Part shown: positions 3-20,599 of the stretch, in pieces
Position numbering within the stretch: the stretch's first letter is position 1
Layout: every line of letters starts with the position of its first letter
Source of the DNA: a virus
DNA: 64,000 nucleotides
Virus record (IMG/VR): IMGVR_UViG_3300017971_000265
Location: 13,933 to 77,932 of that record
Reading direction: 5' to 3' (one strand)
Made by a program: the position numbers and the translations under genes
The notes under the pieces: generated by a model
Database searches by the model: none
What the model was told of the DNA's origin: nothing
Seen by the model: the letters and a program-made list of their open reading frames with translations, nothing else

Positions 3-473
3 CGGCCCGAAGAAGAAGATCCATTTTTTGAGCTTTACAAGATGCAGGAGCATTTTAAGCTGATGGATCAGCGGATCGCGATGGAGACAGCTACGGAGAA
101 GAATCTTACTAAATTATTTAGTACGACACATAAGGAGTTTTTGACAGCGGCACGCCTGGGGGATCTCATTATGATGAAGAAAGAAAAATTGGGGCTCTTA
201 CGGAAGGAGAGAGGTGGTGTACGTCAGCGTGTTGGCAGTGGCGCTCCTGGCCGATTAGATTTGTCCGAGATAGTTTCAAATCCAGAATCGAGACAGAGGG
301 TGTTGGGTTTTGTAGAGGCCCTTTTTGGTGATCCCGAGCTTTTGGAGGAAATAGGGGGGAAGAAGAAAGAGGCAGAAGAGAAGCCGAAAAAAGTTAGGTC
401 GAAGAGAGAGAAACGGAAACGAAGAATTTCACCGCGTCCTTCGAGCGGAACATTTGGCAAGCGTAAGAGATGA
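3..473 (+). CDS. 5'-truncated protein upstream of terminase; possible terminase small subunit
   Basis: Frame is open from base 3 (RPEEEDPFFELYKMQ...); stop overlaps the terL start (ATGA). Function inferred from position only. Confidence 0.4.
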   Translation, partial: RPEEEDPFFELYKMQEHFKLMDQRIAMETATEKNLTKLFSTTHKEFLTAARLGDLIMMKKEKLGLLRKERGGVRQRVGSGAPGRLDLSEIVSNPESRQRVLGFVEALFGDPELLEEIGGKKKEAEEKPKKVRSKREKRKRRISPRPSSGTFGKRKR

Positions 474-3400
474 TTACTTCTACACGGGGGGGTCGTCACC
501 GGTCCAAGCTTACTCTTATGGAGAAGCGTCAAGATCTGGCTCGTCAGTGGGAAAGTATGTCGGAGATAGAGAAGGCTGGTGTTCGGCACATTATAGATGA
601 GGTTGATTTTCTCGGCACAGAGAATGATGTGGGGTTTGAGACGCTTGCTGAAATGTTTAGCTGCTCAGAGGTTTATCACGGTATAGCGGGGGCACATTAT
701 GTGGACCGTATCGCATCGGTAGAGGAATTTGTGTTGGATAATTACTATTTGGGCCATGTGGGGAAGTATCTATGGCCCAAGTGGTTGGCAGATTTGCAGG
801 AAGTATTTGCTGGTCGATATACCGAGGTGATTGTTACGGGGGCAATTGGCTCAGGGAAATGCCTAGATGGCAAGACTGAATTCTATGATCCGGTGAGGGG
901 ATGTAGGTTAGTTTTAAAAGAGGTTTGTGCGCGTGATGACGTCCATGTTGTAGCTTTTGATCAAGAAACGAACACGACTGTGACCAAAAAGGCTAAGGTG
1001 AGATTATCTGGAGAAAAATATCTGGGCACACTTACTCTTGCTAGTGGGAAAGTGATCAGATTAAGTCCAGATCATCCAGTTCTTACTGAGAATGGATGGA
1101 GCCCTATTGGTGATATAACTATGGGGGAGCTAATAGCAACGGCGCGTTCAGTTCCAGCGCCGGATTTTTGTTATGATGTTTCAGATGAAGAGGTAGAGTT
1201 TGTTGCTTTTCTTCTTGCAGAAAAAAGAGGAGTACTTGCAGAAAAAAGAGGAGTACTTGCAGAAAAAAGAGAAGTAGGTGCAACTGAAAACATTGGCAAA
1301 ACGATTTTTCATCCACGGGGGACGAGATGGGTTCAGCATAAGTATGGTTTGCATGAGACGTCTCATAGAAAGCGTATACCTCCTGAATTTTATGGTTTAT
1401 CAGATGAGCAACTGGGACTTTTCCTTAATAGAATATGGGCTTGCGATGGAAGTATTAATATTGCAGCTATAGCTACGTTTGAGATTTGTTTGGCGAGTGA
1501 GTTGTTTATTCGTGATATTCAGCAACTACTATTGAGATTTGGTATTCATTCTCAACTTCAAAAAGGAGAGGGAAGTGAAGATTGGCAGTTAACTATTTCT
1601 GGGGCCGAAAACATCGGCCCATTGTGTGCTGCATTGGGGCCTGTCTTGGGAAAGGAAAGTGCATGGAAAGAGGCCGCTGAGTGGGCAAGGGTTAATCAAG
1701 ACAATTCCAATATTGAACTCACTAGAATCGGGATGGATTTTGAGTCGCCAGAGCGATGTTCTTGGTGGACTGGCGTGTTTTGGGATCGGGTAGTTTCGTT
1801 TGATATAGATAATGAGATGAGCCCTGTCTATGACGTAGAAGTTCCTGGGCTTAAAAATTTTGCGCCGCATAGTGTTATTGTTCACAATACTACTTTCTCT
1901 GATATTGGTATTGCGTACATGTTCTATGAATTGTGCATGTTGAGAGATCCACAGGCGACGTTTGGACTGATGCCAGGGTCGGAAATTGTTTTGGTCTGTT
2001 TCAACCGTGATAAAAAACTAGCTAGAGATGTTACGTTTGGGGGGTTGAAGCGCAAATTAGAGGTTAGTCCTTTTTTTAAAGAGTTAGGATGCAAGTTTGG
2101 TGGTTCTGAGTTGGTTTATCCAGATAAGAATATACGGATCATTGCTGTTTCGGTTCGTTCTGCCGACGCTTTGGGCAGGGATGTGTTTGGTGGAGTTATT
2201 GATGAGACAGAGTTTATGGAGGGGAGCATTTTGAAAGGGGGAGGTGGAGTAGCAGCGCCTGGGGAAAAACCATTTGCTGAACTTTTGCATGAGTCGATTA
2301 CGCGACGTATGAAGTCTCGTTATGAACGTGCAGGTGCTTTGCCTGGAAAGCTCTTTCTTTCATCGTCGGCGCGACATAAACAATCGTTTACGAATCGCCG
2401 CATCGCGAGTGCTGCGAATGATCCGGGAATTTTTTGTCGAGACTATGCCATCTATGACGTCGCTCCTGCTGAGCGATTTTCAAAGAAGCATTTCTGGGTC
2501 ATGGTTGGGACCGAGCGTATCAAGCATAAAATATTTCATAGGCGGGAATTTAGAGCGCTAGGGGGTGAGGGTAGGAAACAACTGGAGGAAAAGGGTTGTC
2601 GATTTATCAAGGTGCCGGATAATTTTCGGCCTGATTTTGAGAGAAATATTGAGGATGCTATTCGGGAAATTGCCGGAGTAGTGACGGTTGTATTATCTCC
2701 GTTCATCCAGATGAGAGATCGCATCTATGATGCCATTGATCCGACACTATTTCATCCCATGGGGTCTGAGGTGTGGCGTACCGATGAGGCGACTCAAATA
2801 GATTGGCGACGATTGGTAAAACTGTATGAGCGGCGTGTTGGGCCGGGTCGGTTAGTAGAAGAATTGAGGCCCATTCGGCACCCTGATGCTACGCGGCACG
2901 CGCATATTGATATCAGTTTGGGAGCAAGCGATCCGGCAGGAATATGTATTGCTCACGTGGTTGATACGATAGACGTCGAGAGGAGGACAGAGGGGGGGAG
3001 GGAAGTTGTAGAGCAGGCTCCTTTGATTGAGGTGGATCTGATGTTGCGAATACTTCCTCCCCTTAACGGGGAGATCGATCTGGGATCTATTCGTGCCCTG
3101 GTCTATGATTTTGTAAAGCATGGTTATAATTTAACTTTTGTCTCGATGGATCTTAAGTTTTTGAGTGCTGATACCCTACAACAATTTGAGCATCAGGGAA
3201 TTGATACTGAGGTTATCAGTGTGGACAAGACTATTCAGCCCTATACTTATTGCAAAACTGCCCTATATGAGGGCCGGTTGAGTCTCTATGAATACCCCAT
3301 TGTTTTACAGGAACTGGAGCAGTTACAGAGAGATGAAATAAAACAGAAAGTTGACCACGTGCCGGGTGGAAGTAAAGATGTATCTGATAGCCTGGCAGGC

Positions 3401-3586
3401 GTGGTTTTTAGTCTTTCCACCAAGCAGGCATATCGTGCTCCGATTATGAGAGGCATTAGTGAGTACGAGGATCATGATAAGAGTTCGGAGTGGATACGCA
3501 AGACGATGCATCGCACAGGGGAAGAAGCGCCTCAAAAAGTTGGTGACGTCCCAGAAGACGGCAAGCCCATAATATTTACCGGGTAA
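470..3586 (+). CDS. terL: Terminase large subunit, intein-containing
   Basis: Walker A VTGAIGSGK/T (split by the intein), Walker B GGVIDETE, coupling motif LSSS, RNase H-like nuclease AHIDIS...SKDVSDSLAG. Confidence 0.93.
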   Translation: MITSTRGGRHRSKLTLMEKRQDLARQWESMSEIEKAGVRHIIDEVDFLGTENDVGFETLAEMFSCSEVYHGIAGAHYVDRIASVEEFVLDNYYLGHVGKYLWPKWLADLQEVFAGRYTEVIVTGAIGSGKCLDGKTEFYDPVRGCRLVLKEVCARDDVHVVAFDQETNTTVTKKAKVRLSGEKYLGTLTLASGKVIRLSPDHPVLTENGWSPIGDITMGELIATARSVPAPDFCYDVSDEEVEFVAFLLAEKRGVLAEKRGVLAEKREVGATENIGKTIFHPRGTRWVQHKYGLHETSHRKRIPPEFYGLSDEQLGLFLNRIWACDGSINIAAIATFEICLASELFIRDIQQLLLRFGIHSQLQKGEGSEDWQLTISGAENIGPLCAALGPVLGKESAWKEAAEWARVNQDNSNIELTRIGMDFESPERCSWWTGVFWDRVVSFDIDNEMSPVYDVEVPGLKNFAPHSVIVHNTTFSDIGIAYMFYELCMLRDPQATFGLMPGSEIVLVCFNRDKKLARDVTFGGLKRKLEVSPFFKELGCKFGGSELVYPDKNIRIIAVSVRSADALGRDVFGGVIDETEFMEGSILKGGGGVAAPGEKPFAELLHESITRRMKSRYERAGALPGKLFLSSSARHKQSFTNRRIASAANDPGIFCRDYAIYDVAPAERFSKKHFWVMVGTERIKHKIFHRREFRALGGEGRKQLEEKGCRFIKVPDNFRPDFERNIEDAIREIAGVVTVVLSPFIQMRDRIYDAIDPTLFHPMGSEVWRTDEATQIDWRRLVKLYERRVGPGRLVEELRPIRHPDATRHAHIDISLGASDPAGICIAHVVDTIDVERRTEGGREVVEQAPLIEVDLMLRILPPLNGEIDLGSIRALVYDFVKHGYNLTFVSMDLKFLSADTLQQFEHQGIDTEVISVDKTIQPYTYCKTALYEGRLSLYEYPIVLQELEQLQRDEIKQKVDHVPGGSKDVSDSLAGVVFSLSTKQAYRAPIMRGISEYEDHDKSSEWIRKTMHRTGEEAPQKVGDVPEDGKPIIFTG
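860..1888 (+). mobile_element. Intein (343 aa) in the terminase Walker A, with degenerate LAGLIDADG domain
   Basis: Starts CLDGKT, block B LSPDHPVL, ends VYDVEV...IVHN followed by Thr; removal restores GSGKTT. Confidence 0.93.
1214..1276 (+). repeat. 3 x 21-bp tandem repeat (LAEKRGV)
   Basis: cttgcagaaaaaagaggagta twice plus one copy with a single mismatch. Confidence 0.95.
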
Positions 3587-3597
3587 AGGAGAAAGTC

Positions 3598-6500
3598 ATG
3601 ACTCTAGTTGTAGCACAAAATATCAGGGATCAACTGCTTGGAAGGGGCGAGGGGAAGTATAGCCTCGATACTATAGAGGACTATTTTCTTGAGGCGATGA
3701 ATCTGATGTTGGGAGATCAGGATTTTGTGTCGGTTGGAGAGAATGTGTGGCAGGTAGAGGGTGAGACTCCGATTACCGTAGAGGTATTCAGAGTATTTCA
3801 CGAGGCTACCGGACAAGATATCATCAATAGGGTAGTAATTGTGGCGGGCGACAATAGGAAAGAGGAGCGATGGGCACTTCCCCCGGCGCGTATTACCGAG
3901 AAGTTTTATTTGGATCATCTCAATGCGATCAAGGATTATGTTTCGCAATGTGTGATGGGCAGCATCATAGGGGAAGACGTCGAGCTGGATGAAGCCACTT
4001 ATAAACCAGGCAGCGTGGCTCACTTTCTTATGGTGCTGACGAGCAAGGTAATCCAGGCGGATCAGCGTCAAGAGAAGGCGGACATTAAGCGTGGAATATC
4101 GGTGAATATTTATCGCCTTGGACATTTTTTAAAAGCTATAAAGGATGTTCAAAAGGGTGTTTCTCGGGTGATGGGTAGCACTGAAAAGAAAGACTTATTG
4201 GTTTTGAAACAGCGAATCAGCCGAGCTTTTACTCCGCAGTTTTCTCCTTCCAAGTTTGTACAAAAAGCAATCGATAAATACCTGGAGACAGGTGCGCTTC
4301 CGAAGATCTCAGGCAAGCGGGGAACGAAACCTCCGTGGGAAGAAGTGGATGTAGAACATGATGACGTCGAGTTGGATGAAGGTTTGGCCAAGGCACCTTG
4401 GGAGAAGGGTGGTCCTTCATATGAGAAGCTTGGATATACAGTATTGGCAAAGGTAAAGGGGGTTTTTAAGACAGACAATGAGCAGGCGGCAAAACGGGTG
4501 GCTCGTGAGAAAGAACTCTCCTATGGATTATCAATCTATGGTTCGTGGTATATAGGCAGGCCGTATCAGCTAAAAAAGCTTGGTGTGCCTAGATGGCAGA
4601 TAAGAGAAGACGTTTCATCTCTAAGGAAAAGAGACGGCGTGTCTTTATTTGTTGGGGAAGGGATAGATCTAGATGAGGCTATTCAGTGGAAAAAGAAGAA
4701 GCAACCAGTGACAGGACTCGATAAGTTTGTTGCGGGCGATGTGCGTAACAAGATGGTACTTTCTCCAGCACTTGCTGGGGATGGCCGGATGAAGGGGTGG
4801 AGGCTCCAGTTTCCTAGTGGTGTCGTTATAAATCATCATATTGATGTTTCCGATTCTCATGGGGCGAAGCGGTGGGCGGAGAAAATAATTGCTACACGCA
4901 GAGAAGACGTCGAGTTGGGTGATACTGGATCAGTGGGGGATATTCAGTTGATGCGAGACGAGCTTCTGGGAGATATCGATGAGGCGTGTAAGACACCGGG
5001 CATGAAGAAGCGTTCTAAGGGGAAGGGTCGTGGCTTGGCCAAGGGCAAGGGCAGGGGGCCGTTGGGTATTCCCATAGGAGACAAGGTTGAGTTGGAAGAC
5101 GTCGAGATGAATGAGGCAAAAGAGTTGTCGCATAGAGAGGTGGAAAAAATAATTACATCCTATGCTTCGGAGTTGTTACCTCTTTTTGCAGACAAATGGA
5201 GTAGGTGGCCACAGGGCCAAGCGGCCAGGGAGATTTACAACGTTTTGATGAAAAAACATAAATTTTATTCTAGCTCAAAGATGAGTAAGGAAGCTGGTGA
5301 TATAAAGAATGTTGCTAGGACAATTTTGAAGCGGGGTGGTATCAAGGAAGACGTCGGGTTGGACGAGGCCCGGCGTAGGAAGAAGATGACCCCGCGAGTC
5401 GATCCCGACATCAAGAAGATTCGGCCAGGCACGGTGCCCAAGGAGATCACGCTGTTTGGTGGCAAGAAGCACGCGGTGGACCCCAAGGCGTGGAAGCACT
5501 TCGTGAAGGAGGCCAAGAAGAACAAGAAGTGGGCCGAAGATCACGAGTACGCGAAGAACCCGGACGAGTGGCCTGCCAGCGGCATAAGCAAGGACATGCT
5601 CAAGGAACGGCTCAGAAAATCGGTCGAGCAACTGGCCCTCGATTCGTATCGGTATGCCTATATGCGGTCGCACGGCGTGGCCAAGGCGTGGGGCTCGAAT
5701 ATGGCTCTCGATCCTGCCGCCAAGAGGAATTGGGAGAAGATCACAGGCAAGAAGATCGAGATCCCGATGGACCCGGCTGAGAAGAAGGTGCTGGACGCGC
5801 TACGGAAGAAGCGCAGGAACGAGGGTGTAGACGTCTCTGGGTTGCGCGATGACCTTCTGGAGTGCGGGTGCGAGGACGAACTGGACGAGGCCAAGGGCTT
5901 TACCAAGGGGCAGCGCGTATCGACCCCGCTGGGACCGGGTGACGTGGCGTATCAGCGAATGGGTCCTCCGAACTACAGTGAGCCCGTGTCCGTGTCGGTG
6001 GTGATCGACAAGAAGCGCAACAAGCCGGGCTATACCGGGACGATGTTCAAGGCGAAGGACGTGAAGCCGCTCAAGGAGGATGTCGAGCTGGACGAGGGCA
6101 TGACCAAGCACACCGTTTTCAAGTTCGGATCGCTGGATGATTTGTGGGATGCTCACGATGCTCTGCGAGAGGCTGGCATGAATGTCAGCCGGTGGACTGG
6201 TGGCTGGAACACCGGGATGCGTGGTCCAATCGCCGCGTGGGTTCACCAGAAGTCGAAGACTCTGGCATTCGGTTCTCCGTCCGTAGCGAGCGAGGCCAAG
6301 AAGATCCTGTCCGCGAAGAAGATCAAGATCGCCAAGGAGTTCAAGGAAGACGTCGAGTTGGATGAGGGCGATTCCAATTATGCGCGTTCTGAACTTGGCT
6401 ATTTGAAAAAAGGTGAGATATGGAGCATACAGATCAGGGATGACAGTGGTGGTGCAACAAAATGGATGGATATAAACAAAGAGGTAATTTCTGCGTTGAA

Positions 6501-8583
6501 AGGGAAGGGTCGGGGGACTTACGCTGCGAAGGAGATGGGCCGTTTGAAAAAAGGTGAGATATGGAGCATGCAGATCAGGGATGACAGTGGTGGTGCAACG
6601 AAATGGATGAACGTTAGTCCTGGGAGAATCAAGGCGCTTATTTCGATATGGAGCAAGCAGGGTCAACGAGAAGACGTCGAGTTGGACGAGGCCAATAGAG
6701 GTTTGAAGTCACAGGCAAATTCTATTCTAGTGACGGCTCAGGAGATGGAGACAGATCCAGATTATTTGAGCAGAAAGCCTGTGTTGGTGAAGCCTTATGC
6801 GGAGAACATGAGGGGGCATGTCAAGGAGTTGTTGGCTCGAAGCAGAGATCCATTGGTAGAAGATATTGCCAATTCAATTAGCCAGATTCGACAGAAAATG
6901 GAAAAGATGGCTAGGTATAGTGGGGGGCGCATTCCTGCCGAAAGGTTTTCGGAGTTTTTTATAAAATTAAAAGCGCAGGCCAAGGGGATACTCTCTGCGC
7001 TGAGAAGCAAGTCGGTGGCGGAAGGCATATTAGATGAGGCCAAGAAGACCTACGTGGTGAACGTTAAGAAGTATTTCCGGGGCATCACGGATCGTGGCGC
7101 GGTGGTCAAGGCTAGGAGTGAGAAGGAGGCTATTGCCAAGGCTGCGAAGCAGCTTGGTAAGAAACCGAGTTATCTGGAGATTGAGAATGTGTACGAAGAT
7201 GTCGAGATGAATGAGGGCGAAACTCTTTTTATTTCTCCGACTAAGGAGGGGAACAAAAAGTGGCAGATCCTTCACAGCACTAGCGGGATGGTCGGGACAG
7301 GTGGCCAGATCATCAAGATAGGGGGCAAGAAGGAAATCAAGGCGCTGGCGGCCAAGCTCGCGAAGAAATGGAAGGCCGAAGTCAAGGAACTGGCTGGCGA
7401 AGACATCGAGATGGAGGCTGGGGACGAAATTCACGCTCTCAGGGACGAGCTGCTTGGGGGCGTAGATGAGGCGTGCAAGACACCGGGTATGAAGAAGCGT
7501 TCTAAGGGGAAGGGTCGTGGCTTGGCCAAGGGCAAGGGCAGGGGTCCGTTGGGTATTCCTGTTGATGAGTTGGAAGACATCGAGCTGGATGAGGGCCGCA
7601 AGGTCAAGCAGTTTGAGTTGGGTGACATTGTACGTCATACCAAGAAGTTCTTGCGAAACACGGGTCAATACACTGGAGTACCCAGGAGTGGAAAGGTTGT
7701 TGGTTTTATTGATCTTGCTGGAAAGAAACTACCAAGGGTGAAATGGGATGATGGTAATGAGGCTCCCATTCAGCCGGAAAATATCGAAATACATCCGAGG
7801 CACAGGAGGCGTATCGAAGACGTCGAGTTGGATGAGGCTAAGACCATTGCTCAGTTTGATCCAGTGAAGGTGGGGACAAAGGTCAAGTTGGTTCGTGGCC
7901 TGTTTGATATGGAGAAAGATCTTTTGCGTAAGAAAAATGTGCATTTCACTTTCGTTCGGTGGGCGAAGCCTCACGGGCATGCTGTGGTGAAGGATAGTAG
8001 TGGAGCGAATTGGCATGTGCATCCCGAGTCTCTTATTCTTGCCGAAGATGTCGAGTTGGATGAGGCTACGCCAGCTGGTGGTGCGGTAGCACTGAAAGCA
8101 ATAGCGGCACTAATGAAGGATTTCCAATACGCTCCCAAGGAATCGAACAAGTATTATGCGGCGTTTGTATATCGGGGACGAGGGGGTAATCAATCTAGGA
8201 TACTCGCGAAAGCTGAGAGTGCCTTGGCTGATGCTGGTTTTGACGAAGCGTCTTTTGGCACGTCGGGGGCTGGGCTTATGGCCGAGACGAGGAGGGGCAA
8301 GGTCTGGGTCAATATATATCTACCAGGACTAAGGACAGAAGACGTCGAACTGGATGAGGCTGGTGTAACTGGTTATTCAATTATGCAGCTTTATAATATT
8401 TTGGCCCGGACGGTTAAGAAGGGAACTGTAAAAGAGATCGAGATGATTCATAACGAGTTAAAGGCCAAGGGGGCTGATATGCACCTGGTTGACCTAATTA
8501 TCAGATCGGGAGGAAAGCTTCCTGGTCGTGTCAAAAAAATAGCATCTTTGAGCGAGATGAGAAATGAGCTGCTGGGCAGCTAG
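3598..8583 (+). CDS. Modular polyprotein-like protein: about 18 small basic modules joined by EDVELDE-type linkers; putative precursor of internal head proteins
   Basis: SD AAGGAG; 17 linker copies; lies between terminase and portal. ORF is secure, function inferred. Confidence 0.7.
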   Translation: MTLVVAQNIRDQLLGRGEGKYSLDTIEDYFLEAMNLMLGDQDFVSVGENVWQVEGETPITVEVFRVFHEATGQDIINRVVIVAGDNRKEERWALPPARITEKFYLDHLNAIKDYVSQCVMGSIIGEDVELDEATYKPGSVAHFLMVLTSKVIQADQRQEKADIKRGISVNIYRLGHFLKAIKDVQKGVSRVMGSTEKKDLLVLKQRISRAFTPQFSPSKFVQKAIDKYLETGALPKISGKRGTKPPWEEVDVEHDDVELDEGLAKAPWEKGGPSYEKLGYTVLAKVKGVFKTDNEQAAKRVAREKELSYGLSIYGSWYIGRPYQLKKLGVPRWQIREDVSSLRKRDGVSLFVGEGIDLDEAIQWKKKKQPVTGLDKFVAGDVRNKMVLSPALAGDGRMKGWRLQFPSGVVINHHIDVSDSHGAKRWAEKIIATRREDVELGDTGSVGDIQLMRDELLGDIDEACKTPGMKKRSKGKGRGLAKGKGRGPLGIPIGDKVELEDVEMNEAKELSHREVEKIITSYASELLPLFADKWSRWPQGQAAREIYNVLMKKHKFYSSSKMSKEAGDIKNVARTILKRGGIKEDVGLDEARRRKKMTPRVDPDIKKIRPGTVPKEITLFGGKKHAVDPKAWKHFVKEAKKNKKWAEDHEYAKNPDEWPASGISKDMLKERLRKSVEQLALDSYRYAYMRSHGVAKAWGSNMALDPAAKRNWEKITGKKIEIPMDPAEKKVLDALRKKRRNEGVDVSGLRDDLLECGCEDELDEAKGFTKGQRVSTPLGPGDVAYQRMGPPNYSEPVSVSVVIDKKRNKPGYTGTMFKAKDVKPLKEDVELDEGMTKHTVFKFGSLDDLWDAHDALREAGMNVSRWTGGWNTGMRGPIAAWVHQKSKTLAFGSPSVASEAKKILSAKKIKIAKEFKEDVELDEGDSNYARSELGYLKKGEIWSIQIRDDSGGATKWMDINKEVISALKGKGRGTYAAKEMGRLKKGEIWSMQIRDDSGGATKWMNVSPGRIKALISIWSKQGQREDVELDEANRGLKSQANSILVTAQEMETDPDYLSRKPVLVKPYAENMRGHVKELLARSRDPLVEDIANSISQIRQKMEKMARYSGGRIPAERFSEFFIKLKAQAKGILSALRSKSVAEGILDEAKKTYVVNVKKYFRGITDRGAVVKARSEKEAIAKAAKQLGKKPSYLEIENVYEDVEMNEGETLFISPTKEGNKKWQILHSTSGMVGTGGQIIKIGGKKEIKALAAKLAKKWKAEVKELAGEDIEMEAGDEIHALRDELLGGVDEACKTPGMKKRSKGKGRGLAKGKGRGPLGIPVDELEDIELDEGRKVKQFELGDIVRHTKKFLRNTGQYTGVPRSGKVVGFIDLAGKKLPRVKWDDGNEAPIQPENIEIHPRHRRRIEDVELDEAKTIAQFDPVKVGTKVKLVRGLFDMEKDLLRKKNVHFTFVRWAKPHGHAVVKDSSGANWHVHPESLILAEDVELDEATPAGGAVALKAIAALMKDFQYAPKESNKYYAAFVYRGRGGNQSRILAKAESALADAGFDEASFGTSGAGLMAETRRGKVWVNIYLPGLRTEDVELDEAGVTGYSIMQLYNILARTVKKGTVKEIEMIHNELKAKGADMHLVDLIIRSGGKLPGRVKKIASLSEMRNELLGS
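4981..7560 (+). repeat. Two near-identical copies of a ~93-bp module (4981-5073 and 7468-7560)
   Basis: Both encode EACKTPGMKKRSKGKGRGLAKGKGRGPLGIP. Confidence 0.95.
6403..6609 (+). repeat. Internal duplication within one module (6403-6468 and 6544-6609)
   Basis: LKKGEIWSxQIRDDSGGATKWM twice. Confidence 0.9.
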
Positions 8584-13036: not shown

Positions 13037-13070
13037 GAATGTGTGGTTTCATCTTTCGTTAGGAGGAGTA

Positions 13071-13973: not shown

Positions 13974-13985
13974 GAGGTAAAGAAA

Positions 13986-15233
13986 ATGGCAGTTCGACCT
14001 CTCGAAGAAGATTTCCAACGTTTAGGATTATCACAAGATGAAATCCGTGCGTCACTTCACAATATGGGGCGACCCTTGGGTGAAATGGCAGAGGCGGATC
14101 TCAGCGATGGTTCTGAAGAAGAGGAAGATGAGGACTTCGAGGAATCCTATCTGAGTGATCTGATAGGTCATGACGACGATGAGGCAGAGGACTTTGACGA
14201 GATGTCAGAGGAAGATTATTTTGAGTTTGTTGACAATCTTTCCGATGAAGAGTTGGATAGGTTGCTTGAAAACTCGGAGATGTTCGAGGCGAAGTTTATC
14301 AAGCTTACTCCTTTGGGTACGCGCAAGACGGCTCGCAGGAAGAGGAAGAAATGGCTCAAAACGGCTGCGGGTCAAGCCTATGCAAGAAAGCAGATGCAGA
14401 AGCGAAAGCGTCCCGCTTTTAAAAAGCAAGCCAAGAAGCAGCGTATTAGGCGCAAAAGAGCGGGTGGAGCACGTAAGGGCTATATGATGCGTGCCGGAGT
14501 CGAAAATCCTTCAGAAGGGAAAGAAGCTATACATGAAGATCTCATGGAAAGCTTGACCGATCTCGCTGAGTCGATTGAGCGTGAACCTGTTTCTCGTTTC
14601 GACGAATATGTCACAGCATTTAATGCCCTTGCTGATCTGGGAGAGCTGGGTGCTGCAAAGATCATGGACGAAGACGAAGATGCGGCAATGGACGTCTTGA
14701 ATCTGTCGCTCCAGGCAGAAGAAGTGTTGAAGCTCATGGAGGACATGGGTGGAGCGCTCGACGAAGACGAAGACGAGGTGCTGGAAGAGGCTCTGGCCCA
14801 GCTGATGGAGCTTGCCGGAGAACTCGTCGAGGAGTATGGCTTGCTTCTCGAAGATGAAGACGAGGAAGAGTATGAGGACGAGGAGCTGGAAGAAGATGAG
14901 GAAGAGATCAATCCCTTCCTAGAGGCTGCTGCTTCGCTTCGTGAAGCTAGACGTCCCCCCAAGGGCAAGAAGCGCTTTCTTCTCAATCCTAAGTCCAGAA
15001 AGGCCGTAAAGGGTCGGTCGAAGTGGAGCAAGGCCGGTGGCAATGCTAAGAGGCAGTTGGCTGGACGCAAAGATGTGAGGAATAAGCAGGCTTTGCTTGG
15101 CTATCTCAAGATGGTGAAGGCGGGCAAGGTTGCTCCTGGCCAACCCATTATGATGAGTAAAACCGGGAAGCCCCTCAGCAAGGGTGCGAGAGCTGCCAAG
15201 AAATTGGCTGCGGCCCGAAGGAAAGCTGGCTGA
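13986..15233 (+). CDS. Prohead core/scaffold-like protein with alternating acidic and basic blocks
   Basis: D/E tracts and K/R tracts; position of T4 gp67/gp68. Confidence 0.6.
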   Translation: MAVRPLEEDFQRLGLSQDEIRASLHNMGRPLGEMAEADLSDGSEEEEDEDFEESYLSDLIGHDDDEAEDFDEMSEEDYFEFVDNLSDEELDRLLENSEMFEAKFIKLTPLGTRKTARRKRKKWLKTAAGQAYARKQMQKRKRPAFKKQAKKQRIRRKRAGGARKGYMMRAGVENPSEGKEAIHEDLMESLTDLAESIEREPVSRFDEYVTAFNALADLGELGAAKIMDEDEDAAMDVLNLSLQAEEVLKLMEDMGGALDEDEDEVLEEALAQLMELAGELVEEYGLLLEDEDEEEYEDEELEEDEEEINPFLEAAASLREARRPPKGKKRFLLNPKSRKAVKGRSKWSKAGGNAKRQLAGRKDVRNKQALLGYLKMVKAGKVAPGQPIMMSKTGKPLSKGARAAKKLAAARRKAG

Positions 15234-17995
15234 TGAAAGGTAAGATGCTCCAGATTCTTCGGGAAGGTGAAGAAATTCAGGAGATAGGTATTCCTGAAGG
15301 AAAGACATTGGACGATCTTCTTGAAGACGTCTGTGTCTTGGAATTCAAGCCGGAAGATTTGTGTGAGAGCGAAGATGGTAAGCGCCCATATCTGAAGGGT
15401 AGATTCGGGTTCGTAGATAAGGCAACCGCGAACAAGAGGGTCTATCCTCGCAACATCATGTTGCGTGAGGTGAATCGTATTCTCGAAGATATGCATGCTA
15501 AGGGTGTCTATGGTGAGTTGGATCATCCATGTCTTACGGATAGTGATTTCCGAGTTCTTACCTCAGATGGTTGGAAGGAGTTTAGGGACATTAGGGTTGG
15601 TGACAAAATATGGTCCCGCAAGGATGGCCATGCTGTTTTGTCTACTGTTCGTGGGATTGTGGATGAGCCCTATGATGGAGATGCATACAAGGTCAAGGGT
15701 AGGAGCATTGATGCTATCTTTACACCAGCGCACAAGATGGTGTTGAACAAGAGACCTGATCGATGTGGCAACGATGTACAAGATGAGTATGTGACAATTT
15801 CCGATATTGCAGAGAATCCTGGGAAATATAGTCATTATGCTATTCCGAATAGAGCACAATGGTTTGAGGAAAAGATTGATACTGTTGTTATTCCCGGCGT
15901 ATCTATTCCTAGAGTAAAATCGGCCAGAAACGATGTTTCTGTTGATTTGAAACTAGATGCGAAGGTATATGCTGCCTTTTTGGGAATATACCTGTCTGAA
16001 GGATTTTGTAGTCCTGAAGACACAGATAACTACATTGTCAATATCTATCAGAAGAATGAGTGGTCCAAGAGGTATATTTACGACGAGGTTCTGAGCAAGT
16101 TTCCAAAAGAGCTGGAGTGGCATGAGACTGATAAAGGGTATGCTCTTTCAGATGCTCGTTTGTATTTTTATCTCAAAAAACTCGGTGACGTATACTCAAG
16201 ACATGTGCCAGAGGAAGCAAAAAATCTTGGAATCGATTGTCTCAACGAGCTTATTTTTTGGTTTGCTAATGGAAGACTTGTTTTTAGCAATTCGAAAGAT
16301 GAGAATTGCAATGTAACCAATGGGCAAACTGGGAAGCAAGTTTTAGCTGAAGAGATCAGGGAAGATTTTACCAAACCTTTGACTAGACAGGATGTTTTTT
16401 CAGTATCGAAACGATTGATAGACGACTTGCATGAATGTTTGGTTCGTTCTGGTCGGTCTGGAAGTATTTCTTGCATCTATCCAGATAATGACTATCAGTT
16501 TGCTGGAAGAACAATTCTGGCGGCTAATAAAGTTCCATTATATCAGTTACACATTGAACATAGTTGTCACACATGGATGGACCCTCGCTTTATCTCTATT
16601 GAGAAGATAAAGCATGCCGGTAACATTTATTGTCTAACTGTCGATAATGGTAATTTCTATATGGAAAAAAATGGCTATTCGTTCTGGACTGGAAATAGCG
16701 ATGGAAAAACGAAGTTTTCCCGAGTTAGCCATTTTGTTACCGATGGCGAGATCACAGAAGATGGAGAAATTCGAGGTAAGATTGAATTTATTCCCGGTAC
16801 AATCAACGGGGATCAGGCTCTTGCTATTGCGCGTGCAGGTGGCAGGTTGGGGGTGAGTAGCCGTGGATTCGGTTCTACCGCTCCCGATTCAAAAGGCAAT
16901 GACGTCGTACAGGAAGACTACAAATTGGTAACTTGGGATATTGTTGCCGATCCAGCTAACGCAGGAGCACACCCTGATTTTGTGGTGGAGCATAAGGAGG
17001 CACAGAAGATGGATCTGGATAGACTCAAAAAAGAACATCCCGAATTGGTAGAGGCGATTCAGAAGGAGACCACGGAAGCGGTTGAGTCTGAGGCGCGGAC
17101 CCATGCCAGGGAAGCATTGCGCGAAGAATTCGAAGGACGGCTTCAGGAAGAAGCAGATTCTATCCGAGAGGAAGCTGTTGAAGAAGCTCGTGGCAAATTA
17201 CTCGAAGATCCCGAGGTGGCTGGTTCTGCAACCGCCATTGAAAGGGTCAAAGAGATCGTTGCTCCATTTATCCTTTCGGAGGATGAGAGCAACGAGGTGG
17301 CGAGGCTCAAGAAGAAAATTGTCGCGTTGGAGCAAAAGATCGCTGACCAAGATGAAGCCTTGACTGTTGCGAGAGAGGAGAGTGATGAGCTTTCCGGTAT
17401 CGCTAAGGAGCTTGGGTATCATCTCTATTTGGAACGCGAACTAAGTGACAATGCGCATTTTGAGCAAGTCATGGAAATGCTTGGTGACGTCAGTGAGTAC
17501 GATACTCTGGACCAACTCAAGGATCGTGTTGAGGAGATTTCCGAGGCGCTTTCCGAGCAGGACAAGGTGACAGAGGATTACGAGGTTCGAATTTCTCAGA
17601 TGGAGAAGGAGCTGAATAAAATCACGGAAGAGCGTGATAAGGCTCTTAGTATCGGAAAGCAGTTTGGCCTGCGTGCCTATGTCGAGCGGAAGATTGCAGA
17701 TAACCCAAGGGCTTCGCAGCTGAGGGAGTTTATTGGGAATCAGGCATTCGAAAGCAGAGAAGATGTGGACAAGCTGGTCGAGTCATTTACGGCTGCTAAC
17801 CCTCCCTCAGAGGAATACGAAAAGATCCGTAATGGGATCGAGAAGAGAGGGCAAACGTTGCCGGAGGACATTGGCTCACGTAGTCCCAAGTCGTTGACGG
17901 AAGGAATGGGAGACGTCGCGGGCGTACCCATAAACGAGCTAAGGGAGCGTGCGGAGAGAATGAATCCTCCCCGCGCTTCTGTGGCGCAACAGTAG
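15233..17995 (+). CDS. Prohead protease (T4 gp21-like) with intein, fused to a C-terminal coiled-coil scaffold
   Basis: NKRVYP, GELDHP, GVSSRGFGS, TWDIVADP; long E/K-rich helical tail. Confidence 0.92.
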   Translation: MKGKMLQILREGEEIQEIGIPEGKTLDDLLEDVCVLEFKPEDLCESEDGKRPYLKGRFGFVDKATANKRVYPRNIMLREVNRILEDMHAKGVYGELDHPCLTDSDFRVLTSDGWKEFRDIRVGDKIWSRKDGHAVLSTVRGIVDEPYDGDAYKVKGRSIDAIFTPAHKMVLNKRPDRCGNDVQDEYVTISDIAENPGKYSHYAIPNRAQWFEEKIDTVVIPGVSIPRVKSARNDVSVDLKLDAKVYAAFLGIYLSEGFCSPEDTDNYIVNIYQKNEWSKRYIYDEVLSKFPKELEWHETDKGYALSDARLYFYLKKLGDVYSRHVPEEAKNLGIDCLNELIFWFANGRLVFSNSKDENCNVTNGQTGKQVLAEEIREDFTKPLTRQDVFSVSKRLIDDLHECLVRSGRSGSISCIYPDNDYQFAGRTILAANKVPLYQLHIEHSCHTWMDPRFISIEKIKHAGNIYCLTVDNGNFYMEKNGYSFWTGNSDGKTKFSRVSHFVTDGEITEDGEIRGKIEFIPGTINGDQALAIARAGGRLGVSSRGFGSTAPDSKGNDVVQEDYKLVTWDIVADPANAGAHPDFVVEHKEAQKMDLDRLKKEHPELVEAIQKETTEAVESEARTHAREALREEFEGRLQEEADSIREEAVEEARGKLLEDPEVAGSATAIERVKEIVAPFILSEDESNEVARLKKKIVALEQKIADQDEALTVAREESDELSGIAKELGYHLYLERELSDNAHFEQVMEMLGDVSEYDTLDQLKDRVEEISEALSEQDKVTEDYEVRISQMEKELNKITEERDKALSIGKQFGLRAYVERKIADNPRASQLREFIGNQAFESREDVDKLVESFTAANPPSEEYEKIRNGIEKRGQTLPEDIGSRSPKSLTEGMGDVAGVPINELRERAERMNPPRASVAQQ
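15530..16696 (+). mobile_element. Intein (389 aa) in the prohead protease, directly after GELDHP
   Basis: CLTDSD...FTPAHKM...IYCLTVDNGNFY...WTGN followed by Ser. Confidence 0.9.
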
Positions 17996-18023: not shown

Positions 18024-19508
18024 ATGGAAGCGAGAGATTATCTCAACGATGAGGCGCTTGCACAATCGGCCGGAACCGTTCTGGACGAGGATCTGAATGT
18101 GGCGCTTCAGGCAAAGTGGGGCGGATTGATGGAACAGGGCTGGGACTCGTGGACGAAGCGCTGCATGGCGCGGATGTTCGAGAACGAGATGGTCCACCTC
18201 AATCAGCTCAAACGAAGGTTTCTCACAGAGGCCACGCTGGCGCAAAACATCCCGGATCTGGTCAAATTCATCTTTCCCATCGTGCGGAGAGTATGGGCCA
18301 ACCTGATCGCTAACGGGCTGTTTTCGATTCAGCCGATGAACTCGCCAATTGGAGGCATCTTCTATTGGGAGTACAAGTACGGGACGTCAAAGGGAACTAT
18401 CACTGCTGGCGACAACATGATAGAGAACTTTGATCGTTACTACTCCTCGGAATATGTCGATGGCGAATCGATTGGAACTGGCACCGATACCTATTCTGGT
18501 ACGCTGGCTTGGAAGCCTGTGAAGCCTTATGGCATGGGCCAGGTGGGAATCGAGTTCGTTGGTACTACCGATGTCGGGGCTACTCTGCGCATCTATGATG
18601 CTGACGGAAGTGGTGATTTGTCAGGAGATGTCAGTGGTGCAAACACTATTACGTTTGCCACGGGTGCTTACAGCATCAAATTCACCGCATCTGTAAATAA
18701 TGTGGTTGCCAACTACTTCTACAACATGGAGGCTGAGGCGGACAACGTACCGCAGGTCAACGTGGACATCACCCTCGAAGCTATCAAGGCTTGGAGTCGG
18801 AAGCTGAAGATATTGTGGTCCAGCGAGGCTGCAGACGACATGAGGGCCGTGCTCAATATGGATATTGAGCCCGAGTTGACATCCGGTGTGGCAAGTGAGA
18901 TCGCGCTGGGTATCGACCGCGAGCTGATCATGGCGGCTTACGGTTCGGGAACAACCAACACAGACACGTTCGATGCAGCGGTGCCACCGGGACGAAACCA
19001 GGTGGATCACTTCCGCAACATCATGACGACCATCGAGAAGGTGTCGGGTGGGATCAACACGGCTACGCACAGAGGCCCTGGCAACTTCCTGGTTATAGGG
19101 CCGAGCGTACAGCCGATTTTTGGTGCGCTGGCCACGCACGGTGACCTGGTACGTGTCTATACGGACGTGCCGACAGGACCGGTAGGCCAGGGTGTGACGG
19201 GACGTCCCGCATTCCCATTGCCGCAGGCTCCGAGTGGATACGGTGTTTATCCGATGGGCTTCCTCCAGAACAAGTGGACGGTCATTGTGGACCCGTATTT
19301 CCCGAGTGGGAAGATTCTGGTCGGTCTGAAGGGGACGATGTTCACCGACTCCGGTTTGGTGTATGCCCCCTACGTGCCACTGGAAATGACGGCTGCGTTC
19401 CTCGATCCGGCAGACTTTTCGCTGCGGAAGGGTATGAGAACCAGGTATGCCAAGAAGCTGGTTAATTCCAATTTCTACGGCATTATCACGGTAACCAACC
19501 TTCCCTAA
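18024..19508 (+). CDS. Major capsid protein (T4 gp23-like)
   Basis: IQPMNSPIGGIF, SRKLKILWS, GLVYAPYVPL, GMRTRYA. Confidence 0.95.
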   Translation: MEARDYLNDEALAQSAGTVLDEDLNVALQAKWGGLMEQGWDSWTKRCMARMFENEMVHLNQLKRRFLTEATLAQNIPDLVKFIFPIVRRVWANLIANGLFSIQPMNSPIGGIFYWEYKYGTSKGTITAGDNMIENFDRYYSSEYVDGESIGTGTDTYSGTLAWKPVKPYGMGQVGIEFVGTTDVGATLRIYDADGSGDLSGDVSGANTITFATGAYSIKFTASVNNVVANYFYNMEAEADNVPQVNVDITLEAIKAWSRKLKILWSSEAADDMRAVLNMDIEPELTSGVASEIALGIDRELIMAAYGSGTTNTDTFDAAVPPGRNQVDHFRNIMTTIEKVSGGINTATHRGPGNFLVIGPSVQPIFGALATHGDLVRVYTDVPTGPVGQGVTGRPAFPLPQAPSGYGVYPMGFLQNKWTVIVDPYFPSGKILVGLKGTMFTDSGLVYAPYVPLEMTAAFLDPADFSLRKGMRTRYAKKLVNSNFYGIITVTNLP

Positions 19509-20302: not shown

Positions 20303-20599
20303 ATGAGTCTAGGTGCATATATTAGGGAGTCATTGAGAGAAAAAGTTCTTGCTGAGTCCAAGAGTGTTGAGGAGTGGTGGGATCGTTTACCGGGTAAAAG
20401 ACGTCTCAAAGTTGTGGCGATTCTTGGGTTGAGCAAGGGGAGGGCGAAGGTTATTTATAGTAAACTCAACCCTGATGAGCAGAGTGAAATCTCTGCATAT
20501 TTCAAGAAATATAAGGGCAAGGTTGAGGGAACAGAGGGGACAGATGATACTTTGAACGAGTCGATGCAGAGGAATGAAGCTAGTCTTAGCCGAGACTAG
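20303..20599 (+). CDS. Small hypothetical protein with leader ending VLAE
   Basis: SD GAGGAG; basic core flanked by LAE and LNE. Confidence 0.65.
   Translation: MSLGAYIRESLREKVLAESKSVEEWWDRLPGKRRLKVVAILGLSKGRAKVIYSKLNPDEQSEISAYFKKYKGKVEGTEGTDDTLNESMQRNEASLSRD

What the first reader, a model, noticed from the sequence alone, without database searches (positions are those of the whole stretch)
3598..8583. 1661-aa beads-on-a-string polyprotein with 17 EDVELDE linkers
Seen: about 18 modules of roughly 35-150 aa, Lys/Arg-rich and mostly unrelated, separated by a conserved acidic heptapeptide usually followed by A or G. About half the linkers also have a hydrophobic-X-E at their left edge (IGE, IKE, LKE, FKE, VAE, VYE, LAE), so the linker could be excised completely. 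Inference: one precursor whose acidic linkers mask the basic cargo until head maturation. I know of no described tailed-phage polyprotein of this kind.
Basis: partly seen in the sequence, partly recalled or inferred. Interest (0 to 1): 0.9.

Follow-up and report, generated by a model that had tools for sequence, protein, structure and literature searches.

The report
Phage head-cargo polyprotein with protease-site linkers
An uncultured T4-like phage encodes about 18 small, mostly basic, unrelated proteins as one 1661-residue chain joined by a conserved acidic peptide that fits the cutting rule of its own head-maturation protease, so it probably loads many proteins into the capsid with one gene, although no cut has been measured.

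Summary
Window 3598-8583 (+) is one 1661-aa ORF with 15 EDVELDE-type heptapeptides. It has 17 [LIVM]-[DN]-E-[AG] sites, against 4 in 17,930 aa of neighbouring ORFs. The gene lies in a T4-type head module: intein-bearing terminase, portal, Peptidase_S77 (gp21-type) protease and gp23-type capsid protein. T4 gp21 cuts after L/I-x-E, so each linker ends in a canonical site.

Homologues of single modules match within linker boundaries. They occur as stand-alone small proteins, often with a leader ending in L-x-E, and in other linker-joined proteins in a different order. AlphaFold2 gives two confident domains separated by a low-confidence linker.

Modules 2-16 are basic (pI 9.4-10.8). Module 1 is an acidic N-terminal domain conserved in a subset of relatives.

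The linker is also conserved as DNA, in other phages too, and GC3 is mosaic along module boundaries. This points to cassette exchange.

Best reading (about 0.7): a capsid-targeted polyprotein cut by the prohead protease into internal head proteins. Cleavage, packaging and injection are inferred. The "acidic masking" idea is weak, since the precursor is still +45.

I found no published description. Earlier notes of this scan report similar polyproteins with other linkers in other phage genomes.

The parts
3598..8583 (+). Polyprotein ORF, 1661 aa (P0001)
   Evidence: same DNA in two independent runs
3598..3657 (+). N-terminal leader (aa 1-20) with I-R-D-Q-L-L-G motif; candidate capsid-targeting helix
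   Evidence: AF2 helix aa 3-13, pLDDT 55-62; resembles the M.L..VNELL leaders of small genes at 26865, 29674 and 30298
3658..3972 (+). Module 1: acidic alpha/beta domain (pI 4.6), found at the N-terminus of six relatives
   Evidence: homologues P0023, P0028, P0033, P0061, P0154 and the L055 ORF all carry it first, followed by a linker
3973..3993 (+). Linker 1, EDVELDE|A
   Evidence: AF2 pLDDT below 50 at aa 123-129
3994..4359 (+). Module 2: four-helix domain, pI 10.0
   Evidence: AF2 pLDDT 95-98; more than 40 homologues, many stand-alone with leaders ending in L-x-E; also in huge-phage record LR745208
4360..4380 (+). Linker 2, DDVELDE|G
   Evidence: low pLDDT in the AF2 model
4381..4656 (+). 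Module 3 (pI 9.9)
4657..4677 (+). Linker 3, EGIDLDE|A
4678..4902 (+). Module 4 (pI 10.8)
4903..4923 (+). Linker 4 (degenerate), EDVELGD|T
4924..4983 (+). Internal leader-like peptide with L-M-R-D-E-L-L-G, ending in I-D-E|A
   Evidence: AF2 helix
4984..5094 (+). C-K-T-P-G peptide, copy 1: Gly/Lys/Arg-rich, predicted disordered
   Evidence: conserved in head-module proteins of 37 IMG/VR loci
5095..5115 (+). Linker 5, EDVEMNE|A
5116..5346 (+). Module 6 (pI 10.0)
5347..5367 (+). Linker 6, EDVGLDE|A
5368..5871 (+). Module 7a; its tail carries L-R-D-D-L-L; GC3 0.81
   Evidence: stand-alone homologues P0010, P0017, P0021 and others; GC3
5872..5889 (+). Short linker, EDELDE|A
   Evidence: (D5)
5890..6075 (+). 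Module 7b: small beta-rich domain; GC3 0.84
   Evidence: many 60-90 aa stand-alone homologues; also a module in P0159, P0012 and the L055 ORF
6076..6096 (+). Linker 7, EDVELDE|G
6097..6345 (+). Module 8 (pI 10.1; GC3 0.73)
6346..6366 (+). Linker 8, EDVELDE|G
6367..6669 (+). Module 9, with an internal 72-nt direct repeat (6397-6468 and 6538-6609)
   Evidence: (D6)
6670..6690 (+). Linker 9, EDVELDE|A
6691..7029 (+). Module 10a
   Evidence: homologue in P0026 placed after, not before, its 10b-like module
7030..7038 (+). Short site, I-L-D-E|A
7039..7194 (+). Module 10b
   Evidence: homologues in P0059, P0026, P0159 and P0145 at other positions
7195..7215 (+). Linker 10, EDVEMNE|G
7216..7398 (+). 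Module 11 (pI 10.0)
7399..7419 (+). Linker 11 (degenerate), EDIEMEA|G
7420..7470 (+). Internal leader-like peptide with A-L-R-D-E-L-L-G, ending in V-D-E|A
7471..7572 (+). C-K-T-P-G peptide, copy 2 (91% nt identity to copy 1)
   Evidence: (D4)
7573..7593 (+). Linker 12, EDIELDE|G
7594..7815 (+). Module 13
   Evidence: homologues in P0059, P0158 and P0160 at other positions
7816..7836 (+). Linker 13, EDVELDE|A
7837..8043 (+). Module 14
   Evidence: homologue near the N-terminus of P0026
8044..8064 (+). Linker 14, EDVELDE|A
8065..8337 (+). Module 15
   Evidence: weak homologues in the L040 and L044 polyproteins
8338..8358 (+). Linker 15, EDVELDE|A
8359..8580 (+). Module 16, ending in M-R-N-E-L-L-G-S (C-terminal leader-like motif)
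   Evidence: P0026 and P0020 end with the same motif
15233..17995 (+). Candidate processing enzyme: Peptidase_S77 (T4 gp21-type) prohead protease, split by an intein, with a coiled-coil C-terminal extension
   Evidence: PF03420 36.7 bits (cut-off 27) and phrog_207 8.6e-28; matches T4 gp21 structure 5jbl in two pieces; His and Ser invariant in relatives
18024..19508 (+). gp23-type major capsid protein, with an L-T-E|A site at aa 67-70 just before the conserved core
470..3586 (+). Large terminase with intein, immediately upstream; the same terminase-polyprotein order occurs in L055

Best explanation
The ORF is a head-cargo polyprotein.

Proposed mechanism:
1. It is made late, together with the head genes.
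2. It enters the assembling prohead through its N-terminal leader and module 1. Further R-D-E-L-L-G-type helices inside the chain and at its C-terminus may help.
3. The phage's own gp21-type (Peptidase_S77) prohead protease cuts it after the last Glu of each E-D-V-E-L-D-E linker, before Ala or Gly.
4. This releases about 18 small, mostly basic proteins and two disordered Gly/Lys/Arg-rich peptides. These stay with the packaged DNA as internal head proteins and are probably ejected into the host with it.

One gene and one targeting signal would thus load many unrelated cargo proteins in equal numbers.

The 21-nt linker coding sequence probably also serves as an in-frame homology patch, through which modules are swapped between related phages.

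Shown here: the anatomy, the head-gene context, the protease family, the modularity, and the conservation of the linker as protein and as DNA.
Inferred: targeting, cleavage, retention in the head, ejection, and the function of every module.
For: 1. Context. The gene lies between the terminase and the portal, in a T4-type head module with a Peptidase_S77 protease and a gp23-type capsid protein. No other protease was seen in the window.

2. Fit to the protease rule. T4 gp21 cuts after L/I-x-E, and short N-terminal capsid-targeting sequences are removed that way (PMC9026906). All 17 core sites read [LIVM]-[DN]-E followed by A or G. They are about 46-fold enriched over the neighbouring ORFs.

3. 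Linker conservation. The heptapeptide recurs at 42 further junctions in 12 other proteins of other phages, with A or G next at 27 of 42.

4. Modules are independent units.
- phmmer matches start and end at linkers.
- Modules occur as stand-alone small proteins, and in other linker-joined proteins in a different order.
- Stand-alone homologues of module 2 carry 12-20 aa leaders ending in L-x-E, which align on the linker.
- The stand-alone window gene 20303-20599 is the first module of a 401-aa mini-polyprotein in a relative.
- The DUF3175 gene at 29384 is a module in P0159.

5. Structure. AF2 on aa 1-261 (pLDDT 86) gives two confident domains, with pLDDT below 50 exactly at linker 1 and low confidence around linker 2. 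Structural matches cover one domain or the other, never both.

6. The same phage and its relatives have many small genes with leaders ending in L-x-E (M-N-L-R-R-R-G-Y-L-x-E and M-x-L-x-x-V-N-E-L-L). In L022 and L040 the polyprotein sits among them.

7. Cargo is basic, pI 9.4-10.8, like the T4 internal proteins that lie within the DNA (PMC3012670).

8. Cassette exchange.
- Val in the linker is GTC in 12 of 12 cases, against a 19-22% background.
- The same codons are used in L022, L098, L055 and L040.
- GC3 is 0.73-0.84 in modules 7a-8 and 0.41-0.52 in most others.
Against: - No cleavage, packaging or ejection has been observed. The phage is uncultured.
- gp21 needs only L/I-x-E, so seven conserved residues are more than the T4 rule explains. 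An extended specificity, a DNA-level constraint or another function of the peptide may be involved.
- The full heptapeptide is absent from the capsid protein's likely maturation site (L-T-E|A) and from the other head proteins.
- At about half of the junctions the acidic heptapeptide would stay on the C-terminus of the upstream product.
- No module has a known function or fold.
- The protease carries an intein and must splice before it can act.
Confidence: 0.7

Rival explanations
1. An uncut multidomain 'beads on a string' protein. The chain stays whole, for example as an internal DNA-organising or inner-body-like protein, and the acidic heptapeptides are only flexible, charge-balancing spacers.
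For: Cleavage is unproven. The linker is longer than gp21 needs. Alternating acidic spacers and basic domains could serve DNA condensation. The linkers are predicted to be disordered.
Against: - A plain spacer would not need a fixed seven-residue sequence ending in L-D-E followed by A or G at 42 further junctions in other proteins.
- The same modules exist as stand-alone proteins with leaders ending in L-x-E at the aligned position.
- Module order is free.
- The phage's own protease family cuts exactly such sites.
Confidence: 0.1
2. A polyprotein that is cut by something other than the S77 prohead protease. Candidates are another phage or host protease, or cutting only after ejection into the host cell, as proposed for some polyvalent proteins.
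For: - Only 78 kb of the genome is available, so another protease could lie elsewhere.
- Iyer et al. 2017 discuss processing inside the head or after injection.
- The heptapeptide is more specific than the T4 rule.
Against: No other protease was found in the structural module. The P3-P1 residues and the small P1' residue fit gp21-type sites. Linker-type polyproteins co-occur with S77 proteases in related loci.
Confidence: 0.08
3. A sacrificial core or scaffold component. The chain helps to build the prohead core and is then cut up and expelled, like T4 gp22, rather than being kept as cargo.
For: The gene lies in the head module, has many protease sites and carries leader-like helices. T4 gp22 is cut at several L/I-x-E sites.
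Against: - The modules are folded, basic and unrelated to one another, and they have stand-alone homologues.
- Separate acidic coiled-coil scaffold candidates exist: the ORFs at 13041-13973 and 13986-15233, and the protease C-terminal extension.
- Module content is hypervariable between relatives whose capsid proteins are 71-76% identical. A structural core would not be expected to vary that much.
Confidence: 0.07
4. The repeat is mainly a DNA element. The 21-nt sequence would be a recombination or regulatory signal, and the peptide only its translation.
For: Synonymous positions are conserved within the gene and across several phages. GC3 is mosaic along module boundaries. A second contig in the same sample carries identical linker DNA with different flanks.
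Against: In the relative L002/L003 the peptide is conserved while the codons differ, so selection acts on the peptide. The DNA role is better seen as an addition to the protease-site role than as a replacement.
Confidence: 0.05

Closest known systems
Phage T4 internal proteins IPI, IPII, IPIII and Alt: capsid-targeting sequence plus gp21 processing (PMC9026906, PMC3012670)
   Same: - Both use a gp21-type (S77) prohead protease and cut after L/I-x-E.
- Both have short targeting leaders.
- Cargo is small, basic and highly diverse, with only the signal conserved.
- Genes lie in or near the head module.
- The conserved signal may help gene shuffling.
   Different: - T4 cargo is made from separate genes, each with its own 10-aa signal. 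Here about 18 cargos are one translation product joined by a stereotyped seven-residue linker.
- There is no sequence similarity to the T4 internal proteins or to their targeting sequence.
- The linker is conserved far beyond L/I-x-E, and also as DNA.
Polyvalent proteins of phages and conjugative elements (Iyer, Burroughs, Anand, de Souza, Aravind 2017, PMC5512222)
   Same: Both are large multi-module proteins encoded among virion genes. Both are predicted to be packaged and delivered with the DNA, show mosaic and rapidly reshuffled architectures, and may be processed.
   Different: - Polyvalent proteins are defined by known conflict domains (MuF, ADP-ribosyltransferases, nucleases, zincin-like peptidases and others), with autoprocessing proposed through an embedded peptidase.
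- Here no module matches any Pfam or PHROG family and no peptidase is embedded.
- Here the junctions are one repeated site that fits the separate prohead protease.
Multiple cleavage of inner-body and ejection proteins in giant phages phiKZ, 201phi2-1 and SPN3US (reviewed in PMC9026906)
   Same: A diverged gp21 homologue cuts many head-internal proteins after Glu at short motifs, and some proteins are cut at several sites.
   Different: There the cuts mostly remove propeptides from individual proteins. No chain of many unrelated mature products joined by one repeated linker is described.
Polyproteins of large eukaryotic dsDNA viruses, such as African swine fever virus pp220 and pp62, and adenovirus core precursors (from my own knowledge, not checked here)
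   Same: In both, a dsDNA virus makes particle-internal proteins as precursors, which a virus-encoded protease cuts at a repeated short consensus during particle maturation.
   Different: The proteases are unrelated cysteine proteases with Gly-Gly-type sites. The products are few and fixed, with no cassette variability. There is no evolutionary link.

Membership tests
T4-type capsid-targeted, gp21-processed internal head proteins | The phage encodes a gp21-type (Peptidase_S77) prohead protease | tested here: met
   PF03420 scores 36.7 bits against a cut-off of 27; phrog_207 E = 8.6e-28. It matches T4 gp21 structure 5jbl in two pieces around an intein. His in G-E-L-D-H-P and Ser in S-S-R-G are invariant in six relatives.
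T4-type capsid-targeted, gp21-processed internal head proteins | Processing site L/I-x-E with the cut after Glu | tested here: met
   Met by sequence only. There are 17 [LIVM]-[DN]-E-[AG] sites, about 46-fold enriched over the neighbouring ORFs. The rule is taken from PMC9026906. Actual cutting was not tested.
T4-type capsid-targeted, gp21-processed internal head proteins | A short N-terminal capsid-targeting sequence that is removed by the protease | tested here: inconclusive
   An N-terminal amphipathic helix (aa 3-13) carrying I-R-D-Q-L-L-G resembles the leaders on small genes of the same phage. It has no similarity to the T4 targeting sequence, and no function has been shown.
T4-type capsid-targeted, gp21-processed internal head proteins | Each cargo protein is made from its own small gene | tested here: not met
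   One 1661-aa ORF carries about 18 cargos.
T4-type capsid-targeted, gp21-processed internal head proteins | Sequence homology to IPI, IPII, IPIII or Alt | tested here: not met
   No Pfam or PHROG family matches the polyprotein or its stand-alone module homologues.
T4-type capsid-targeted, gp21-processed internal head proteins | Physical presence in the DNA-filled head and ejection into the host | not testable with these tools
   The phage is uncultured and no proteomic data are available.
Polyvalent proteins (Iyer et al. 2017) | Many domains in one polypeptide, encoded among virion genes | tested here: met
   About 18 modules lie between the terminase and the portal.
Polyvalent proteins (Iyer et al. 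2017) | Contains the recognised conflict or effector domains of that class (MuF, ADP-ribosyltransferase, nucleases, ArdC and others) | tested here: not met
   Pfam finds nothing at E <= 0.01. Structural searches of modules 1 and 2 give no clear match.
Polyvalent proteins (Iyer et al. 2017) | An embedded peptidase domain for autoprocessing | tested here: not met
   No peptidase family was detected in the ORF.
Prohead core/scaffold protein (T4 gp22-like) | An acidic, coiled-coil protein without independent folded cargo domains | tested here: not met
   Modules are basic and folded, and have stand-alone homologues. Separate scaffold-like ORFs exist at 13041-15233.

The most novel reading that the evidence does not exclude
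The linker is a dual-purpose junction. As a peptide it is the cut site of the head protease. As a conserved 21-nt DNA word (GAAGAYGTCGAGYTGGAYGAG) it is an in-frame homology patch. Co-infecting phages of this lineage would use it to swap cargo cassettes freely. The polyprotein would then be a natural plug-and-play arsenal of about 18 injected proteins (anti-defence or host take-over), loaded into the capsid with a single targeting signal.
Probability: 0.35. Interest if true: 0.9.

Novelty: new variant of a known kind. Interest (0 to 1): 0.78.

Why it matters
If the linkers are cut as proposed, tailed phages have a polyprotein strategy so far associated with RNA viruses and a few large eukaryotic DNA viruses. 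One gene and one targeting signal would load the capsid with many unrelated proteins in fixed stoichiometry.

This would extend the T4 internal-protein paradigm. It would explain how the cargo repertoire can turn over almost completely between phages whose capsid proteins are 71-76% identical. It would also mark hundreds of small uncharacterised protein families as probable virion-delivered proteins, which makes them candidates for anti-defence or host take-over functions.

The linker and its protease would form a ready-made natural system for packing foreign proteins into phage heads. The widely conserved, disordered C-K-T-P-G Gly/Lys/Arg peptide could be a general DNA-associated internal peptide of many phage heads.

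Tried and rejected
- The look-up of encoding contigs. The contigs of P0002, P0003, P0026 and others could therefore not be inspected.
- Complex prediction. No protease-linker docking was run.

Searches that found nothing:
- The search for related loci with the whole polyprotein in IMG/VR.
- The search for related loci with the module 1 alignment in IMG/VR and in metagenomes.
- tblastn against 50,697 phage records found only one match, module 2 in the huge-phage record LR745208.

Families and folds:
- Pfam and PHROGs gave no family for the polyprotein or for ten stand-alone module homologues.
- Foldseek against PDB and BFVD gave nothing at E <= 0.001.
- VIA-align gave a best Z of 8.4 (Mediator Med17C) for module 1 and 6.4 for module 2. 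That is within the range of chance arrangements, so I drew no function from it.
- The ESM Atlas gave only viral hypothetical clusters at scores below 0.8.

Technical dead ends:
- The MAFFT alignment of module 7 with its 7a and 7b homologues was misaligned, so I did not fold it.
- The degenerate 21-nt linker pattern hit 67 metagenome loci. Most are single in-frame EDVELDE peptides in apparently unrelated ORFs. I count only the multi-linker loci L055, L098, L040, L053 and L044.
- No RNA holder is listed among the sequencing runs.
- No single Logan contig spans the whole ORF, because unitigs break at the two copies of the 116-nt repeat.

Ideas considered and dropped:
- A synthetic construct, because GAAGAC and GACGTC are restriction-enzyme sites. 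Rejected because the DNA is in two environmental studies and the linker occurs in many natural relatives.
- A multi-core peptide-natural-product precursor. Rejected because the modules are folded domains of 40-170 aa in a head module.
Full report
**Observation.**
Window 3598-8583 (+) is one ATG-started ORF of 1661 aa. A loose pattern for the heptapeptide E-D-V-E-L-D-E finds 15 sites, 7 of them exact. A slightly different loose pattern, run over the six-frame translation of all 64 kb, finds 14 sites in this ORF and one elsewhere. Shuffles of the protein give 0.023 matches on average.

The core [LIVM]-[DN]-E followed by A or G occurs 17 times. The other + strand ORFs have 4 such sites in 17,930 aa. 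Counting two degenerate linkers, there are 19 possible cut sites and 20 pieces of 17-174 aa.

Modules 2-16 are basic (pI 9.4-10.8). Module 1 is acidic. Modules are unrelated to one another, apart from a duplicated Gly/Lys/Arg-rich peptide and a short internal repeat in module 9.

The same DNA is present in runs of two separate studies, a sediment and a seawater metagenome. Unitigs break only at the two copies of the 116-nt repeat, whose unitig has double depth. The ORF is therefore real.

**Context.**
All genes are on the + strand and form the structural module of a myovirus. In order they are:
- large terminase with an intein (470-3586)
- the polyprotein
- a 432-aa protein
- T4 gp20-type portal with an intein
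- two scaffold-like proteins
- a 920-aa Peptidase_S77 protease (T4 gp21 family), split by an intein and extended by a coiled coil
- gp23-type major capsid protein
- adaptor
- a block of small genes
- tail sheath, tube and baseplate

The capsid protein matches T4 gp23 structures. The protease matches the T4 gp21 structure 5jbl in two pieces on either side of the intein. The His of G-E-L-D-H-P and the Ser of S-S-R-G are invariant in relatives.

The genome held is a single 77.9-kb contig. The nearest cultured phages share only about 33% capsid identity.

**Why the linker looks like a protease site.**
T4 gp21 cuts C-terminal to Glu in the short motif L/I-x-E. [quoted passage not shown] Every linker here ends in L-D-E or M-N-E, or in I-D-E or V-D-E at the short sites, followed by Ala or Gly. 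The capsid protein has L-T-E|A at aa 67-70, just upstream of the conserved core that aligns with mature gp23.

About half of the linkers also have a hydrophobic-x-E at their left edge, so the heptapeptide could be excised there.

**Modules are independent and portable.**
A phmmer search of aa 1-1200 against 1.84 billion representatives gave 599 hits. The hit boundaries coincide with linker positions: 1-134, 131-247, 448-508, 592-721, 759-836, 1014-1133 and 1144-1197.

Many hits are stand-alone proteins of 60-140 aa. Stand-alone homologues of module 2 often carry 12-20 aa leaders ending in L-x-E. In the alignment these leaders fall on the linker.

Other hits are further beads-on-a-string proteins with the same linker but other modules, or the same modules in another order. 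These include P0026, P0003, P0023, P0033, P0059, P0145, P0158 and P0159, and the ORFs of L022/L098, L055, L040 and L053. Across 12 such proteins, 42 further junctions give the consensus E-D-V-E-L-D-E, then A or G at 27 of 42.

Fusion and fission are visible between close relatives:
- The 98-aa window gene 20303-20599 is the first module of a 401-aa mini-polyprotein next to the capsid gene in L002/L003.
- The DUF3175 gene at 29384 is a module of P0159.

Module 1 is a conserved N-terminal domain in six relatives and always ends at the first linker. In L055 the same terminase-polyprotein order is kept.

**Structure.**
AlphaFold2 on aa 1-261, with 29 aligned sequences, gave mean pLDDT 86. It predicts an alpha/beta domain (aa 21-122) and a four-helix domain (aa 133-235). 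pLDDT falls below 50 at aa 123-129, which is linker 1, and is low around linker 2. Structural matches cover one domain or the other, never both, and none is strong enough to name a function.

The duplicated C-K-T-P-G peptide is predicted to be disordered apart from its leader helix. It is strikingly conserved. It occurs in head-module proteins of 37 IMG/VR loci, 14 of which carry recognisable terminase, portal, S77 protease or gp23-type capsid genes nearby.

**A second signal.**
A motif of the type h-R-D-E-L-L-G occurs at five places: the N-terminus, twice before the C-K-T-P-G peptides, once in module 7a, and at the very C-terminus. Relatives have it at their termini too.

It resembles the leaders M-x-L-x-x-V-N-E-L-L of small genes at 23849, 26865, 29384, 29674, 30298 and 30663. 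A second leader class, M-N-L-R-R-R-G-Y-L-x-E, heads genes at 25490, 26238, 26630, 27844, 28164 and 37413. The lead for both classes came from earlier notes of this scan.

Both leader classes recur in L003, L022, L040 and L098. There the polyprotein lies among such genes. This phage lineage therefore seems to pack a large set of leader-tagged proteins, and the polyprotein is one way of encoding them.

**DNA level.**
Within the gene the linker is GAA GAC GTC GAG TTG GAT GAG, with little synonymous variation. Val is GTC in 12 of 12 cases, against 19-22% elsewhere. The same codons are used in L022, L098, L055 and L040. They are not used in L002/L003, where only the peptide is kept.

GC3 jumps between modules: 0.73-0.84 for modules 7a-8 against 0.41-0.52 for most others. 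A low-depth contig in one sample carries the same linker DNA with L022-like flanks. Capsid proteins of L022 and L003 are 76% and 71% identical to the window's. Among the loci compared, L022 shares only the C-K-T-P-G peptide with the window's polyprotein, and L003 shares it through its mini-polyprotein.

This fits in-frame cassette exchange at the linker. It parallels the diverse T-even internal proteins, in which only the targeting sequence is conserved (PMC3012670).

**Interpretation.**
The most likely reading (about 0.7) is a capsid-targeted polyprotein that the S77 prohead protease cuts at the linkers into basic internal head proteins.

The precursor remains at +45.

The rivals are less likely:
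- an uncut spacer-linked protein
- cutting by another protease, or only after ejection
- a sacrificial scaffold
- a purely DNA-level repeat

Reasons are given under each rival.

**Novelty.**
Full-text searches found no description of such a phage polyprotein. The nearest concepts are the T4 internal-protein system and the polyvalent proteins of Iyer et al. 2017.

Earlier AI notes of this scan report similar head-cargo polyproteins with other linker motifs in other uncultured phages. I did not test those notes.

I class this as a new variant of a known kind.

Noticed in passing
window 470-3586, 10179-12926, 15233-17995: All three enzymes of head assembly and packaging carry an intein-like insertion. 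The terminase has Intein_splicing plus LAGLIDADG domains. The portal has a weaker, sub-threshold Intein_splicing match. The prohead protease has an insert of about 400 aa right after the G-E-L-D-H-P motif; no intein family was detected in it, and the call rests on the two-piece match to T4 gp21. The relative L003 has an intein-free protease of 512 aa.
   Followed up: partly
window 25490, 26238, 26630, 27844, 28164, 37413 (also internal at about 24762): Small genes begin with the leader M-N-L-R-R-R-G-Y-L-x-E and have unrelated bodies. The leader ends in L-x-E, like a T4 capsid-targeting sequence. The same leader heads genes in L003, L022, L040 and L098.
   Followed up: partly
window 23849, 26865, 29384, 29674, 30298, 30663 (looser: 8594, 20303, 21295): A second leader class, M-x-L-x-x-V-N-E-L-L followed by L/I-x-E, sits on other small genes. 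It resembles the R-D-E-L-L-G motif of the polyprotein.
   Followed up: partly
window 4984-5094 and 7471-7572; loci L003-L039: A C-K-T-P-G-M-K-K-R-S-K-G-K-G-R-G-L-A-x-G-x-G-x-G-P-x-G-x-P peptide is almost invariant. It is often tandemly repeated and is predicted to be disordered. It occurs in head-module proteins of many otherwise different phages, including one protein (L009) whose N-terminus looked to me, by eye, like an HK97-type prohead protease. Its function is unknown; it may be a DNA-associated internal peptide.
   Followed up: partly
window 20303-20599 versus L002:3243-4448: A stand-alone 98-aa gene in the window is the first module of a 401-aa mini-polyprotein, joined by E-D-V-D-L-E-E and E-D-V-D-L-D-E linkers, in a relative (58% identity over 65 aa).
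   Followed up: yes
window 29384-29665: A 93-aa gene with a class II leader carries DUF3175 (PF11373, E = 3.7e-10). The same domain is one module of the polyprotein P0159.
   Followed up: yes
window 5368-6366 and 7039-7593: Modules 7a, 7b and 8 (GC3 0.73-0.84) and modules 10b-12 (0.66-0.71) differ sharply in GC3 from the rest of the gene (0.41-0.52). This suggests recent acquisition from a source richer in G+C.
   Followed up: partly
run X2, a record of 566 nt laid at window 3973-3992 and 6351-6368: A low-depth contig in the seawater sample matches only the linker DNA and continues with sequence like the L022/L098 polyprotein. A related phage with the same linker DNA therefore co-occurs in that sample.
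   Followed up: no
window 8594-9892: The 432-aa protein directly after the polyprotein starts with a leader-like S-I-R-A-L-R-D motif. It has acidic and basic low-complexity parts and a weak match to phrog_519, which has no assigned function. It may be another head-internal or scaffold protein.
   Followed up: no
L001 7911-8609 (LR745208, a 485-kb uncultured huge phage): This is the only match to the polyprotein among 50,697 phage records. It is a 232-aa ORF carrying a module 2 homologue (41% identity) behind a leader of about 30 aa.
   Followed up: partly
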